DNA of 64,000 nt, taken from NCBI GenBank assembly GCA_951406725.2, contig OX597834.1:40920001-40984000 (forward strand). Direction: 5' to 3'. Origin of the DNA: Octopus vulgaris (lineage: Eukaryota). Every line of letters begins with the position of its first letter. The stretch's first letter is position 1. Made by a program: the position numbers. Positions 16,817 through 46,600 of the stretch are shown piece after piece.

Positions 16817-19800
16817 TAACACAACGTTTATATGTAAAACCAAGCTGTATATGATACAGTGTATTGTGTCACATCTGTGTGACACCATGGTTAAAAACTA
16901 CCATGTCATATGTAACACCATCCAATATGTAAAACCATAAAGTTTGTGACACCATGTTACGTGTCATACTGTGCCATGTGACACAAGTCATTATGCTGTA
17001 ATGTGACACAGTGTTGCAGGAGGCATTCTGCCGTGAGACCGAGTCCCTTTTGCCACCATATTGCTAGAGACAATGCATTTGTTATATGTGACATTGTACT
17101 ACATGTGATGGTTAAATTTAATATAGTTTTAAAAGGGTGTAGATTGGGGTGGGGCGAGGGACCAGCAGCTGCCTGAGGGGGGTGGGACATGGGGTGGGGG
17201 TAATGTGAGAGAAGGAAATCTTTTCTGTGCTGACTTACTGTGGAGAATCTTTGATGTCGAATACACAAGTGTTCATAAATCTGTTCATCTTCCTCGCCGT
17301 CGTACACAACATCATATAAATCCTGGTTATCATCCAAGTCATTCTCACTATATACAACAACAACGACAACAACAAAGCTTATATGGATTACAACAACTAA
17401 CAACAAACAAACAAACACCTACTATCAAAACAACAGCAGCAACAACAACAAAAAAAAACAGCAAAAAATAAAAAATATAAAATTAGAAATCAAGAATACA
17501 AAATAAAATAAAAATAAAATAAAATGAAAAGACAACATTGATCAAACAAAATAAAACAAAAAAAATTATCAAAATAAAAATTAAAACTAAAAAACAGTAA
17601 ATAAAAAGAAAAAAATAATGAAATGAAAAATATAAAAAAAACTGCAAACAAATCACTGGAAAGGAATTTCTTTAAAAAAAAGAGGGAAAAAATATAATTA
17701 AAAAATAAGAGGGGGAGGAAGAACAGATGTGGTGCAAGGTGGTGGTGGTGGTGGTAACATCAGACTGAGGTGAAGGGCAAGACTGGAAAGGAAGGGTGAA
17801 CATATTAATTCTATGTATAGTAGCAGAAAGGTTTGTGGACGATGGTCAGATTGTGGTAGTGGTGGTAGGAGGAGGAGAAGAAGGAGGCTGAAGACAAAAA
17901 CTTGTGATAAATTACGAAAACAACAAGTGTAAAAACAAAAAATAAAAGACAAAATAAAACAACATAAAAAACTAATGAGAAATTGTATAGTTGTTGTTGT
18001 TGTTATAGTTTATTCTCCCCCCATCCATACACACACACACTACCACCTTCCCCTCTGCCCAGTCCTGTCCCAACCCAACAGACGTATGAAGGTGATCGTA
18101 ATGGTGTTGGTGGCACGACTGTCTTTAATTATGGTGTTGTTGTTGTTTACTCTCAAGTTCTTCAAACTGCAAGTAGACCTACAATCAAAGGCGTTCCAGC
18201 CACGACAATCCCATAGTTTATCTTTTTTTCTTTTTTTATGATTTTTTTTTTACGGCTCAATCAAAAGAGAAAAGCAATCCTTCATCTCAATGTTCAAAAA
18301 ACATCTAAGACTGTGGGAGTTGAGAGACTTGATTCACATATTTGCACCAGAACAGACAGACATGGCTAAAGGCACAGGAACGCCAAGTGGTTGTGTTAAA
18401 CTGTATGACAGAATTAGAACTGCCACCAAATTTAAGACTACAACATCCAATGTGTGTTTCTTTTTCTAAGACAATAATGCAATTTAAGGGAGATTTGGCT
18501 GATATATATCTCGCAACCCAAAAGATTGTGAAGATGTTCCTTCTATGACTTGAAATTACCATGAACAGGCTGTCGTCCCATTTGCTTCTGTGGTGATGGT
18601 GATTATATTGTTAAAGATCAATGTCAATGATGCAGGCATAGAAATGACAGAGCTTTATTATAAGAAATAACATAAGAATGGTTAATTGCCATTTGTGAAC
18701 AAATTGACAGGATGGCGGCAAGAATTTGTCAAAAAAATGAACTTCTAGAACAGTGCTTTTCAACATTTTTGCTGGAGCGGAACCCCAAGAAAACATTCCA
18801 CTGGCTCGAGGAACCCCTGTGCAATAATTTAATAGTCTTATGCACACATATCTGCACAGGAGAAATAAAAATTACTGCCGATTTTAGCAGTTTTGTAACT
18901 TCTTGCGGAACCCCTGGACTGTACTGGCGGAACCCTAAAGTTTTGCGGAACCCTGGTTGAAAACCACTGTTCTAGAATATAGCATGAGTTTCTAAATCCA
19001 ATCACTTGTTTGAATTTTGTATGCATGTGTGTGTGTATGTGTGTGTGTGCATGTTTTAGCATTAAAATTACATGGCAGTTTCCGTGATGATAAGAGATGA
19101 AATTTAAGACATTTATGCATTATCAGAGCTATTATTTCTATGGTTGAATAACCGTGTTCGTCACTCAACAACAAAGTAAATATGGAACCCGTTCTCAGCC
19201 TGGCAAGGTAATTTGCCTTGAACAGTGGCACATCAGACATTTAGAAGCAACTCTGATATCTGAATACTTCCTTTTCATCTCTAGTATATCATCTATCCAG
19301 GCACAAGTCAGGTATCATACATATACAAACTACACTCACAGAACATAAATCAGTGAGTGAATCTCTATGCAGTTACCCAACCTGCAAGAAATTGCAGCCA
19401 AATCTCTCTTATATTACACCCTATAATCTTAAATAAAGAATGTAACACTTAATAACGTAGCCTCACATATATACAAGGAGACAAGATTGTCAAAGCTGAA
19501 ATGTCTTTTGAGTGTAGCTCAAACCAGGCTGAGTTGAAGCTAAGCAGCAATAGACACGGTACAAATTGTTTGTATTTCAGAGTAATCTATTTACTGAGAG
19601 GAATGCTGGACCACTTCAGAGACATCTTGATCACAGGTACTGACAGGTAGTGTCAATTATGACACATGAGCTGCATACTACACAACCTGCTAACTTAGAG
19701 ACCTTGATCACCAATGGTCTTTACAACAGAAATCCCAAATGAGGTAGTCCCAGATATGCTACACTGCCCAATGCACTGAGCAGAAGCTAAATATAAACTA

Positions 19801-43655: not shown

Positions 43656-46600
43656 TACAGGACAGCTCAGATTACCAATCTCTACCCACATCTCTTTCTT
43701 CAACAAGATGAGGTATTGAAGGACGAAAAGAAGGAAGATAGAGAGGAATAATAGAGAAGATGGGGCAGGGGCGAGGCCTGGAAGAGAGAGAGAGAGAGAA
43801 AGAGAGAAAGATATGGGAGAGGCGGAAAAGAGAAATATGTGAGTGACAATTTGAAATAGAGTGTAAACAGAGGGAACAACAAATGTTGTCAGCTTTATTA
43901 CATCTTCACCACCACCAAGATCAACAACATTACCACCACCACCACCACCAATACCATTACAAGAAAAATCCAGGACAACAAACCAAGCAGGGAGCTTCAG
44001 CTTAGTTGCTCAACCATTGTAAGAATCGTTGCAAAGTCTCCCTCCAACGCCACTCTATTATTTTATATAACACTCCATTATCTTATAAATAAGAAAAAAG
44101 TGAAGATAGAATGATGTAGCCCTAAATACATTATGCTTTAAGAAAAAATGGGCAGGTCATGGGTGGAATGCCTTTGATCACATGTCAGTTGGATCAGAGC
44201 TGACTTAGGCTAAACAACTGGCTTTGATAAGTTTTTGCTTCCTTTAGGACAGTGTAATCTCTCTCTTAAAATCATTAACCCTTTCGTTACCAACCCGGCT
44301 GAAACTGGCTCTGAAAACAAATATCTTGTTTTCATAAGTTTTGAATTAAAAATCTCCCACCAAACCTTAGTCACAATTTATGTCCCTAACACTAGCTTAA
44401 TGATAACAAAGTTATTTTACTAAATTTTTTGTTATATTTAAAGTAACTGAAAGAAACACAGAGCATCTCAACAGCAATATGGTAACAAAAGGGTTAAATA
44501 ATATATAATAGAGAAACAATTATTAACCCCTTTGATACCAACCTGGCTGAGACTGCCTCTGGCTCTGTAGTACAAATGTCTTGATTCCAAAAGTTCTGAA
44601 TTAAAACCTTCCACCAAACCTTAGTCACAATTTATGTCCCTAACACTAGCTGAATGATAACTAAGTTATTTTACTAAATTCTTTGTTATATTTAAAATTA
44701 ATTGAAAGAAACACAGAACATCTCAAAATAAATACAGTAACGAAAGGGTTAACACTTAGTAACTGTAAGCTATGAGCGTCTAAGAAAGATAGTGCAGTGC
44801 TCATAGGGCTCACAATCCTTCCTCTTTCCCCTACAGTATCTATGGGAGAAGACAAATGCAGTGCCCAATTAGGATTCCGGTCCCTCACCTTCCATATGAC
44901 TAAAGAGATTGATATGATAAATTAATTATTGTCCAGCTTGAATTTCTCCGAGGGTTGACCTGATTAAATATAAACAAACCATGCGCTTATTTCAGAATAG
45001 AAATATAGAAGTAATAAATATAAAACTTGTTGTTCTTGCAATTGTCTTATTGTTGTTGTACCTGATAGTCTACCTGTGTTTATTACTGGAAAATGCCATT
45101 TCAACCGTGAAAGTTTAGTTCTGAGTTAACATGTAATTTATGCACATGCTTGCTTGTATTATGCACATACACAAATGCACCAAAAGACAAGATTAGTATA
45201 ATAACAAGGTTTATATATATATATAAGAGCATACATGCAAACAAACCCACATATATACACATATACCTACAAGAGTTAGTAGTGATTAGTCTTTCAGCAA
45301 TTAATAATACAGATTTTGTGACAACTTCCTTTTTTGCTCTGCTGTGCTCTGCCACTGAACATTTGCACACATGATGTGATGTTGATGTCACCAGCTCCTC
45401 CAATACACAGCTAATACTACTGCTACTAACACTACTACTACTACTGCTACTACTACTGTTAGCAAATGCAAAAAAAAAAACACAAAAATAAACTTTAAAA
45501 AAAAAATTATAAAATGATGAAAACAACAGACAGCAGAAGGGTAGGCGAGAGACACAAATTAAGGATAAACGAACGAACGGATAGACGGACGGACGGACGG
45601 ACGGATGGACGGAAGGACGGCTGGACGGATGGATGGATGGATGGATGGACTGGTGGTTTGGGAGGAGGATTGAGGATGGGTGACATTGATCCTTGAACCC
45701 ATAAAAGTGAGTGTATGATTATTGAGCAGGCTTGGGTGACAAGGACTGCATCAAGCACTTACGTTGCAAGATCCTCCAATGTGTTGTAATAATCATGTTC
45801 AATAGTGAGAGGTCTCGTATCAGGAGGAGAGAACCCTCTACAATTGAGAAAAAGGAGAGCAAAAGAACGGTAAGAAACCAAGGGGCAACGAAGGTCAAGG
45901 GTCAGCTAACAGAGGAAAAAAGAAATTGGGAAAAAAAAAATTTTTAATAAATATATTAAAATATTACTTATTGATAATAGTAAGATATTTTTTTTTTTTT
46001 CCTTTTTTTTTTACTGTAACTTTTGTTCTTTTTAAAGAATATTTCAGTAATTATATTTTTCAGATTTTCAATTAAAAAGAAGAAAAAAAAAGAAAGAAAG
46101 AAAGAAGTTTACCATTGAAATAGATTTAATGTGTTTTTCTCTTAAAGTGGATTTCAATTATTTCTTTTAATTTTTTTTCTGTTTGTATATATACACACGC
46201 ATTCCAATATGCATACATGTGTATGTATACACACACATACACACATATATAAATGCATACATATAGACATGTTTGTGTATGTGTGAGTGTGTATGTGCAT
46301 AAATATATTTAAACATATACATGTATACCTAAATACATATATATATATGCATATATTTATATTTGCACACATATAAATACATATATACATACATTTATAC
46401 ATATGAGTATACATTATATATGTATTCTATAATATATAATATGCACACACACACGTGTGCACATGCGTATATGTACATACACTCACATGTGTGTGTGTGT
46501 GTGCATGAATGAGCACTTGCATGTATGTGTGCATAAACACACATATTATGGCAGGGGTTTGGGTGTTTGGGATGAGGGGAAGCTATAATATTGACCCTCT

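What the first reader, a model, noticed from the sequence alone, without database searches (positions are those of the whole stretch)
17239..45837. Possible 2x2 combinatorial or coupled splice code covering the whole Vav acidic region
Seen: the transcript order is 4a-4b-5a-5b, not 4a-5a-4b-5b. Each exon therefore appears to have been duplicated separately, and only the two regulatory exons are duplicated; the CH and DH exons here are single copy. About 47 kb of intron surrounds these four exons, while the six DH exons fit in about 6 kb. Inference: up to four acidic-region isoforms. The canonical-looking pair (4b+5b) and the divergent pair (4a+5a) may be co-selected as tightly versus differently inhibited Vav forms, possibly through long-range RNA pairing.
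Basis: inference. Interest (0 to 1): 0.7.

Follow-up and report, generated by a model that had tools for sequence, protein, structure and literature searches.

The report
Alternative tyrosine-switch exons in octopus Vav

Summary
The window holds part of an octopus Vav gene on the minus strand. All have GT-AG splice sites and start in the same codon phase. About 47.2 kb of intron surrounds them, against six DH exons in about 6 kb. Each a/b pair is more alike than shuffled controls.

Public Octopus Vav protein models already use these exons as 4a+5a, 4b+5b and 4a+4b+5b. So 4a and 4b (75 and 78 nt) are independent in-frame cassettes, not a mutually exclusive pair. 5a and 5b (103 and 109 nt) are mutually exclusive by reading frame: including both gives an immediate TGA, and skipping both gives a stop in exon 6.

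4a-like and 5a-like exons also occur in bivalves, gastropods, a chiton and a brachiopod, in almost every combination, so the module is ancient and coupling is not general.

A single-genome search for docking/selector RNA pairing found only microsatellites. All versions keep the Vav1 Y142, Y160 and Y174 equivalents but differ about two-fold in net charge, which suggests tuned autoinhibition (inferred).

It is a real, ordinary kind of feature. Six literature searches found no description of it.

The parts
55430..55485 (-). Last CH/linker exon, called 'exon 3' here (56 nt). It encodes VLYTLSKLSKTELAQKTA plus 2 nt (AG) of a split codon.
   Evidence: Sequence read (acceptor AG at 55487-55486, donor GT at 55429-55428). 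It matches P0003 residues 111-128. The split codon gives R with 4a and S with 4b, as in P0001 and P0002.
45763..45837 (-). Exon 4a (75 nt, divisible by 3). It is the divergent Y142-type exon, with an HDYYNTLEDLA motif, net charge -4 and 2 Tyr.
   Evidence: It is 100% identical to P0001 and P0003. 4a-like exons occur in bivalves, gastropods, a chiton and Lingula.
34992..35069 (-). Exon 4b (78 nt, divisible by 3). It is the canonical Y142-type exon, with a DEDEDIYSNL motif, net charge -8 and 2 Tyr.
   Evidence: It aligns to the Vav1 stretch GDEDIYSGL and is present in P0002 and P0003.
23526..23628 (-). Exon 5a (103 nt, 1 mod 3). It is the alternative Y160/Y174-type exon, containing EVY and QQIYEDLCSLKRKSTSQ, with net charge -5 and 2 Tyr.
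   Evidence: It is present in P0001 and P0004 and aligns to Vav1 Y160 and Y174.
17239..17347 (-). Exon 5b (109 nt, 1 mod 3). It is the canonical Y160/Y174-type exon, containing DLYDVVY and EQIYEHLC, with net charge -10 and 3 Tyr. Read after 5a, its first codon is TGA.
   Evidence: It is present in P0002 and P0003 and aligns to Vav1 Y160 and Y174.
7791..7910 (-). First DH exon, called 'exon 6'. The proximal acceptor gives 7791-7889 (99 nt). An alternative acceptor 21 nt upstream (exon start at 7910) adds LLSAYLQ.
   Evidence: Sequence read. The long form is in P0003 and the short form in P0001 and P0002.
1957..6421 (-). Five further DH exons at about 6353-6421, 6049-6276, 4115-4213, 3228-3317 and 1957-2055. 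These are tblastn limits; the splice sites were not refined.
   Evidence: The ORF at 5929-6276 matches Pfam RhoGEF with E 2.2e-08.

Best explanation
This is the part of an octopus Vav gene that encodes the acidic (Ac) autoinhibitory linker between the CH and DH domains. The linker comes from an old set of tandemly duplicated alternative exons.

Two Y142-type exons (4a, 4b) share a phase and have lengths divisible by 3. Either, both or neither can be spliced in without breaking the frame, so they behave as independent cassettes.

Two Y160/Y174-type exons (5a, 5b) are each 3n+1 nt long, so exactly one must be used. With both, 5b begins with an in-frame TGA. With neither, a stop follows 85 nt into the next exon. 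Such mRNAs would give a truncated protein or be degraded (inferred).

All splice sites are ordinary GT-AG, and the 5a-5b intron is 6.2 kb. Exclusion is therefore by reading frame plus regulated splice-site choice, not by steric hindrance or incompatible spliceosomes.

Every version keeps the invariant inhibitory-helix tyrosine (the Vav1 Y174 equivalent) and a Y142 equivalent. The versions differ in net charge (4a+5a -9; 4b+5b -18; 4a+4b+5b -22), in tyrosine number (4, 5, 7) and in the segment after the helix.

Inferred function: splice choice sets how tightly the linker clamps the GEF domain, and which tyrosine kinases release it and how easily.
For: Shown:
- Exon limits, phases and splice sites.
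- Frame logic for all 32 exon paths: 16 stay open, all with exactly one exon 5.
- Public Octopus models carry 4a+5a (P0001), 4b+5b (P0002) and 4a+4b+5b (P0003). An unnamed cephalopod-like protein from a 2916-nt contig carries 4a+5a (P0004).
- a/b similarity exceeds shuffles in octopus. For 4a/4b it also does so in Lingula (0 of 5000 shuffles), Crassostrea gigas (8), Babylonia (4), Lottia (73) and Solemya (148), but not in Biomphalaria (3127).
- Deep conservation: among 75 lophotrochozoan cluster representatives sorted by my own motifs, 29 carry a 4a-like exon and 11 a 5a-like exon. Isoforms of one gene differ in 5a versus 5b in Mizuhopecten (X7 versus X2-X6 and X9) and in Magallana gigas (X3 versus X1, X2, X5), with the same longest_contig value in each case.
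- Octopus 5a outscores octopus 5b in 7 of 7 bivalve proteins bearing 5a. The reverse holds in 9 of 9 proteins bearing 5b (28 of the 117 extracted rows were given).
- Both octopus forms align to Vav1 Y142, Y160 and Y174. The Y174-equivalent column is invariant in 72 of 72 aligned Vavs.
- Charge and tyrosine counts.

From the literature (passages read): the Ac tyrosines and the Y174 helix hold Vav closed until they are phosphorylated (PMC4601183; PMC10177506).
Against: - No expression or activity data were available.
- Orthology of cephalopod and bivalve 5a is not settled. Octopus 5a scores as high against proteins bearing 5b (67-97) as against bivalve proteins bearing 5a (62-83). A tree on 38 columns is unresolved and needs 3 changes for the 5a label. 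The AU test neither rejects nor shows one clade (p 0.0955).
- The AlphaFold2 models have low confidence across the Ac region in both forms, so they say nothing about differences in packing.
- The functional reading (tuned autoinhibition, kinase preference) is inference from composition alone.
Confidence: 0.75

Rival explanations
1. It proposes a strict 2x2 code in which 4a/4b and 5a/5b are each mutually exclusive, and in which the choices are coupled (4a with 5a, 4b with 5b) by long-range pairing of intronic RNA.
For: Among the four cephalopod cluster representatives, 5a occurs only with 4a alone (2 of 2: P0001, P0004) and 4b only with 5b (2 of 2: P0002, P0003). The long introns (6-11 kb) would leave room for such elements.
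Against: - P0003 includes both 4a and 4b, and their lengths (75 and 78 nt) do not enforce exclusion.
- Four representatives cannot show coupling.
- In other molluscs 4b+5a (4 rows), 4a+4b+5a (3 oyster rows) and 4a+5b (1 chiton row) occur.
- Of 15 donor-flank x acceptor-flank pairs, only 4b-downstream x 5a-upstream stood out (z -6.5, 0 of 25 shuffles). That signal is a (UA)n/(UG)n microsatellite, and the reversed control also reached -92.5 kcal/mol.
- After masking, the longest uninterrupted WC/GU runs were 14-22 nt, against 14-23 for reversed controls and at most 15-21 in shuffles.
Confidence: 0.1
2. Annotation artefact or splicing noise. Only one path (for example 4a+4b+5b or 4b+5b) is the real product, and the others are rare mis-splicing events or gene-model inventions without function.
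For: The isoforms seen are computed models. P0001 stands for a cluster of one sequence, against 29 for P0003. No read-level data could be examined.
Against: - All four exons have intact splice sites and open frames.
- 4a-like peptides are nearly unchanged from octopus to Lingula, with score 78.
- 5a-type exons recur in isoforms of five bivalve genera.
- A 2916-nt contig from an unnamed source encodes 4a+5a end to end.
- Such conservation is not expected of unused sequence.
Confidence: 0.1
3. Convergent origin. The 5a exon of cephalopods and the '5a-like' exon of bivalves arose by separate duplications of the canonical exon 5, so the octopus switch is younger than it looks.
For: The tree is unresolved, and the 5a label needs 3 changes. 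Octopus 5a is at least as similar to bivalve 5b as to bivalve 5a. Bivalve 5a lacks the Y160-type tyrosine that octopus 5a keeps.
Against: - They share a tail: octopus LCSLKRKSTSQ, Ruditapes LCSLKRSHGSQ, oyster LCSLKPSHSQ. The 5b tail is instead LC-x-R..R-rich.
- Octopus 5a beats octopus 5b in 7 of 7 bivalve proteins bearing 5a.
- The AU test does not reject a single clade (p 0.0955).
- The labels cluster more than in 500 of 500 shuffles.
Confidence: 0.25

Closest known systems
Public 'protein vav' isoform models of Octopus vulgaris and O. sinensis
   Same: The exon peptides are identical to the window's (100% over 4a, 5b and exon 6). The split-codon residues at each junction are the same. The combinations 4a+5a, 4b+5b and 4a+4b+5b are the ones seen.
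   Different: Nothing differs in substance: they describe this locus in the same or a sister species. They are computed models without any published analysis that I could find. The full isoform list could not be seen.
Acidic-region autoinhibition of mammalian Vav1 (PDB 3KY9 'Autoinhibited Vav1', 6NF1)
   Same: The CH-Ac-DH-PH-C1 part aligns at E about 1e-138 to 1e-143. Both octopus versions place tyrosines at Y142, Y160 and Y174. Both models match 3KY9 and 6NF1 best (TM-score normalised to target 0.68-0.77).
   Different: The solved proteins have one fixed acidic region. Here the region is exchangeable by splicing, with about two-fold differences in net charge. Whether the inhibitory helix docks alike in both forms is unknown, because Ac-region pLDDT is low.
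Mutually exclusive exons that arose by tandem exon duplication and are kept exclusive by reading frame and mRNA decay (textbook cases such as FGFR2 IIIb/IIIc and tropomyosin; recalled, not looked up here)
   Same: 5a and 5b are adjacent and homologous, share a phase and are both 3n+1 nt long. Including both or skipping both gives a premature stop.
   Different: The neighbouring pair 4a/4b looks the same at first sight but is 3n nt long and is co-included in public models, so it is a pair of cassettes.
Docking-site/selector RNA competition in insect exon clusters (Dscam1 exon 6, 14-3-3 xi, Mhc; recalled)
   Different: No complementary intronic pair beyond chance was found in this single genome. 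Conservation across species, which defines such elements, could not be tested.

Membership tests
Vav family Rho/Rac GEF | CH domain, acidic region with regulatory tyrosines, DH-PH-C1 core and an SH3-SH2-SH3 tail | tested here: met
   The window's exons match residues 102-426 of Octopus 'protein vav' at up to 100%. A window ORF matches Pfam RhoGEF. The full public proteins carry CH, RhoGEF, PH, C1, SH2 and SH3 Pfam domains and match Vav1 chains at E 6.3e-143. Only the end of CH, the Ac region and most of DH lie in the window.
Mutually exclusive exon pair from tandem duplication (5a/5b) | Adjacent exons, homologous to each other, with the same phase and length class | tested here: met
   The exons are 103 and 109 nt, both start at codon position 3 and both end in phase 0. 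Smith-Waterman score 50, reached by 14 of 20000 shuffles.
Mutually exclusive exon pair from tandem duplication (5a/5b) | Exactly one of the two is present in mature mRNA | tested here: met
   4 of 4 cephalopod proteins carry exactly one. Both together give TGA at the first codon of 5b, and neither gives a stop 85 nt into exon 6. Read-level data were not available.
Mutually exclusive exon pair from tandem duplication (4a/4b) | Exactly one of the two is present in mature mRNA | tested here: not met
   P0003 (O. sinensis) carries both. 19 + 5 of 75 lophotrochozoan rows carry both. The lengths 75 and 78 nt keep the frame in every combination. Homology and equal phase are met.
Docking-site/selector RNA-pairing control of exon choice | Complementary intronic elements next to the variant exons, conserved across species | tested here: inconclusive
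   Single genome only. Nothing exceeded the controls in flanks of 400 to 1500 nt apart from microsatellites. No other cephalopod genome could be read with these tools.
Exclusion by steric hindrance or by U2/U12 splice-site incompatibility | An intron between the variants too short to splice, or mixed AT-AC/GT-AG site types | tested here: not met
   The 5a-5b intron is 6178 nt. All four exons have an AG acceptor with a pyrimidine tract and a GTAAGT or GTAAAA donor.

The most novel reading that the evidence does not exclude
In cephalopods an ancient exon module of the Vav acidic region may have become a coordinated two-state switch. 4a would be spliced straight to 5a, skipping 4b, and 4b would be spliced to 5b. 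Octopus cells would then make two Vav proteins whose whole tyrosine-controlled clamp is exchanged (net charge -9 versus -18). The two forms might be tissue-specific and might answer to different tyrosine kinases. The exon-5 switch itself may go back to the protostome ancestor, because spiders, ticks and mites also show two or three different exon-5 types at the same place.
Probability: 0.2. Interest if true: 0.65.

Novelty: new member of a known kind. Interest (0 to 1): 0.4.

Why it matters
Vav proteins are the textbook case of a GEF held closed by an acidic, tyrosine-bearing linker and opened by phosphorylation. A review states that nothing is known about the signalling specificity of Vav splice isoforms (PMC4601183, passage read). 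An evolutionary review of the family contains no word beginning with 'splic', 'isoform' or 'exon' (PMC6562523).

Here evolution has kept two natural versions of exactly the regulatory linker. The 4a and 4b types are shared by molluscs and a brachiopod. The 5a and 5b types are shared by cephalopods and bivalves, if their 5a exons are orthologous. This offers a ready-made comparison for asking how charge and tyrosine context set the activation threshold.

For genome annotation it is a reminder that duplicated neighbouring exons are mutually exclusive only if their lengths enforce it.

Tried and rejected
- Whole-region inverted-repeat scan: 1037 pairs, and the 25 longest are all AT/AC-rich low-complexity arrays at about 40.8-41.4 kb and 43.1-43.6 kb. 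It was uninformative.
They were repeated with 400-nt flanks and 25 mononucleotide shuffles.
- blastn of exon flanks (+/-400 nt), a versus b: only microsatellite words matched. The exon DNA is 41 of 80 and 61 of 113 alignment columns identical.
- Exon-5 tree (31 rows, 38 columns): 19 of 27 inner branches are unresolved. AU test p 0.0955. This gives no verdict on one or several origins of 5a.
- AlphaFold2 of P0001 and P0002 with 72-row alignments: mean pLDDT 83.3 and 81.9. The Ac region is mostly below 60 (P0001) or below 50 (P0002 residues 132-174). Short helices are predicted at 149-153 and 170-180, and at 149-156 and 173-187.
- The Foldseek TM-score differences between the two models (0.76-0.77 versus 0.68-0.70 to 3KY9 and 6NF1) lie within what such low-confidence linkers allow, so I draw nothing from them.
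- Rfam (0 matches) and tRNA scan (0 genes) over the window.
- Pfam on 106 ORFs of 75 aa or more: only RhoGEF and one reverse-transcriptase fragment pass the curated cut-offs, so no other gene is seen in the introns.
- Six literature searches found no description of alternative acidic-region exons in any Vav. One hit, PMC10735318, matched only the author name Vavouri.
One exon was searched alone, and after that only public proteins were used.
No other cephalopod DNA could therefore be compared.

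
Full report
**What is in the window.** The 64-kb window has about 36% G+C and no N. Its minus strand carries part of a Vav gene. One DH exon translated from the window (6052-6276) found 'protein vav' of Octopus vulgaris and O. sinensis at E about 1e-36. tblastn of those proteins back onto the window places residues 102-426 of P0003 there. The pieces are one small exon at the end of the CH region, four small acidic-region exons and six DH exons. Residues 1-110 gave no credible hit (best E 1.0), so the other CH exons lie outside the window. 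I searched one exon alone and then worked with the public proteins that it returned.

Reading the sequence and checking phases gives these exons:
- 'Exon 3': 55430-55485
- 4a: 45763-45837 (75 nt)
- 4b: 34992-35069 (78 nt)
- 5a: 23526-23628 (103 nt)
- 5b: 17239-17347 (109 nt)
- Exon 6: 7791-7889

The finding's two coordinates are the last base of 5b and the first base of 4a. Each exon follows a pyrimidine-rich tract and an AG, and is followed by GTAAGT (GTAAAA for 5a). In all four, the first base completes a codon begun in the previous exon. 4a and 4b end two bases into a codon. 5a and 5b end on a codon boundary. The five introns around them add up to 47,154 nt, while the six DH exons span 5954 nt. 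A profile of the acidic region hit only these four of 3311 ORFs in the window (E <= 4e-5; next best 0.85), so there are no further copies. Each DH exon has one place only.

**Are the a and b copies related?** In octopus, 4a/4b reach a Smith-Waterman score of 32, matched by 109 of 20000 shuffles. 5a/5b reach 50, matched by 14 of 20000. The cross pairs are unremarkable. For 4a/4b the same test in other animals gave:
- Lingula: 0 of 5000
- Crassostrea gigas: 8 of 5000
- Babylonia: 4 of 5000
- Lottia: 73 of 5000
- Solemya: 148 of 5000
- Biomphalaria: 3127 of 5000, so no similarity there
- Batillaria could not be split

Both exon-4 types begin with GF-x-P and end with Y..L..LA. Arthropods and a priapulid have one exon 4 with both motifs in a row (HDYYNDDIYRNLEDLAN). 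This fits a duplication followed by loss of one motif in each copy. At the DNA level the copies are only about half identical, and their flanks share nothing but microsatellites, as expected of old duplicates.

**How the exons are used.** The public proteins give the answer directly:
- P0001 (O. vulgaris) reads 4a+5a.
- P0002 (O. vulgaris) reads 4b+5b.
- P0003 (O. sinensis) reads 4a+4b+5b, plus seven residues from an upstream acceptor of exon 6.
- P0004, an unnamed cephalopod-like protein from a 2916-nt contig, reads 4a+5a.

The residues at every junction (R or S after exon 3; T or F before exon 5) are those predicted by the split codons in the window.

So 4a and 4b are not mutually exclusive. 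Their lengths divide by three and they are co-included. 5a and 5b are exclusive by frame. I followed all 32 exon paths in a script, and the 16 that stay open are exactly those with one exon 5. With both, 5b starts with TGA. With neither, a stop falls 85 nt into exon 6. The splice sites are all GT-AG and the 5a-5b intron is 6178 nt, so neither steric hindrance nor mixed spliceosome types explains the exclusion.

**The module is old.** A profile search returned 120 Vav proteins, mostly named invertebrate models with many isoforms. I cut out the acidic region of 117 of them; 3 failed anchoring. I then sorted the 75 lophotrochozoan rows with motifs of my own. Five of these rows are unnamed, and the rows are cluster representatives, not all isoforms.

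| Class | Rows | Notes |
|---|---|---|
| 4b+5b | 36 | |
| 4a+4b+5b | 19 | |
| 4a+4b+5a | 5 | three oyster rows; two Lingula rows whose exon-5 type is uncertain |
| 4b+5a | 4 | Mytilus edulis, Ylistrum, Mizuhopecten, Ruditapes |
| 4a+5a | 2 | both cephalopod |
| 4a+5b | 1 | a chiton |
| exon 5 or exon 4 type unclear | 8 | |

Isoforms of one gene differ in 5a versus 5b in Mizuhopecten and in Magallana gigas, with the same longest_contig value in each case. The 4a peptide is nearly unchanged between octopus and the brachiopod Lingula (score 78).

For exon 5 the evidence for orthology is good but not conclusive:
- Octopus 5a beats octopus 5b in 7 of 7 bivalve proteins that carry 5a, and the reverse holds in 9 of 9 that carry 5b.
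- The 5a types share the tail LCSLK...SQ.
- However, octopus 5a scores as high against proteins bearing 5b (67-97) as against bivalve proteins bearing 5a (62-83).
- The 38-column tree is unresolved, and the AU test gives p 0.0955.

**Coupling and RNA pairing.** But four is too few, the cluster members could not be listed, and other molluscs show the 'uncoupled' combinations.

For RNA pairing I could only test this one genome:
- Of 15 donor-flank by acceptor-flank pairs (400 nt each), one stood out: 4b-downstream with 5a-upstream, z -6.5. It is a run of (UA)n and (UG)n repeats.
- After masking simple repeats, the longest uninterrupted WC/GU runs in 1500-nt flanks were 14-22 nt. Reversed controls gave 14-23 and shuffles at most 15-21.
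- That test ignores bulged helices and anything deeper in the introns. Conservation across species, the real criterion, stayed unchecked.

**What the versions would do.** Both octopus forms align with mammalian Vav1 so that tyrosines fall on Y142, Y160 and Y174. 4b+5b is the closer match, at 481 against 467 bits. In 72 aligned Vavs the Y174-equivalent column is invariant, and the Y142-equivalent tyrosine and the leucine three residues after it are nearly so. According to the passages I read, these tyrosines and the Y174 helix hold the CH-Ac part against the catalytic core until phosphorylation opens it (PMC4601183; PMC10177506).

The versions differ in charge and tyrosine count:

| Exon | Net charge | Tyr |
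|---|---|---|
| 4a | -4 | 2 |
| 4b | -8 | 2 |
| 5a | -5 | 2 |
| 5b | -10 | 3 |

The linker is therefore -9 with 4 tyrosines (4a+5a), -18 with 5 (4b+5b) or -22 with 7 (4a+4b+5b). The stretch after the helix is KRKSTSQ in 5a and RHQRFST in 5b. I infer that splice choice tunes how firmly the clamp holds and which kinases open it. This is inference from composition, not a result. The AlphaFold2 models of both forms have low confidence in this region, so they do not bear on it. Both models resemble autoinhibited Vav1 overall.

**Surroundings.** No other gene is evident in the introns. Of 106 ORFs of 75 aa or more, only the RhoGEF exon and one reverse-transcriptase fragment (707-1336, plus strand) pass Pfam cut-offs. 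Rfam and tRNA scans found nothing.

**Known or new.** The isoforms are already in public annotation, so the exons themselves are not a discovery. I found no paper that describes alternative acidic-region exons in any Vav (searches, judged from listings and abstracts). The family's evolutionary review has no word beginning with 'splic', 'isoform' or 'exon' (PMC6562523, term counts and passages). The 2014 review says nothing is known about isoform-specific signalling. No supplementary files were consulted. The kind of feature, tandemly duplicated alternative exons with frame-enforced exclusion, is well known (from general knowledge, not looked up).

**Verdict.** This is a real, conserved and moderately interesting new member of a known kind. 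The strict 2x2 coupled code is not supported.

Noticed in passing
window 7890-7910 (minus strand): Exon 6 has a second acceptor AG 21 nt upstream. It adds LLSAYLQ in frame. The long form is in the O. sinensis model P0003 and the short form in P0001 and P0002.
   Followed up: partly
proteins P0073-P0101 (chelicerates), not in the window: Spiders, ticks, mites and horseshoe crabs show two or three quite different exon-5-type segments between near-identical flanks: HNEDTMVPFEFP...CYVTLR, ETDYAANVEQPY...IVQYKPS and NEAFGEFGEYEYE...LCAFRR. This suggests an alternative exon 5 in arthropod Vav as well. No pair of named isoforms from one gene was seen. The two Tachypleus rows have different longest_contig values.
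   Followed up: partly
proteins P0001 versus P0002, residues about 645-685; outside the window: The two O. vulgaris models also differ in the linker before the SH2 domain (SRSRTACYEKAF... versus DHHRKTSYTEHKLNGHHH...). This may be a second alternative region of the same gene.
   Followed up: no
window 707-1336 (plus strand): A reverse-transcriptase fragment (Pfam RVT_1, E 1.2e-17) lies just downstream of the last DH exon mapped in the window (1957-2055), on the opposite strand from Vav, presumably in the next Vav intron.
   Followed up: no
window 56417-56716: A minisatellite with a 42-nt unit, 7.1 copies and 99% matches. It lies in the intron upstream of the last CH exon.
   Followed up: no
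window about 40800-41370 and 43130-43600; also 34600-34850: Long AT/AC-rich low-complexity arrays that are complementary to one another. They dominate every inverted-repeat or duplex scan of the introns.
   Followed up: partly
proteins P0038 and P0059 (Babylonia areolata): Two different Vav-like proteins with different longest_contig values, so probably two genes in this snail. One has a 4a-like exon and the other does not.
   Followed up: no
protein P0067 (Elysia chlorotica, partial): This model goes from the CH end straight to exon 5 with no exon 4. That path is also in frame in octopus.
   Followed up: no
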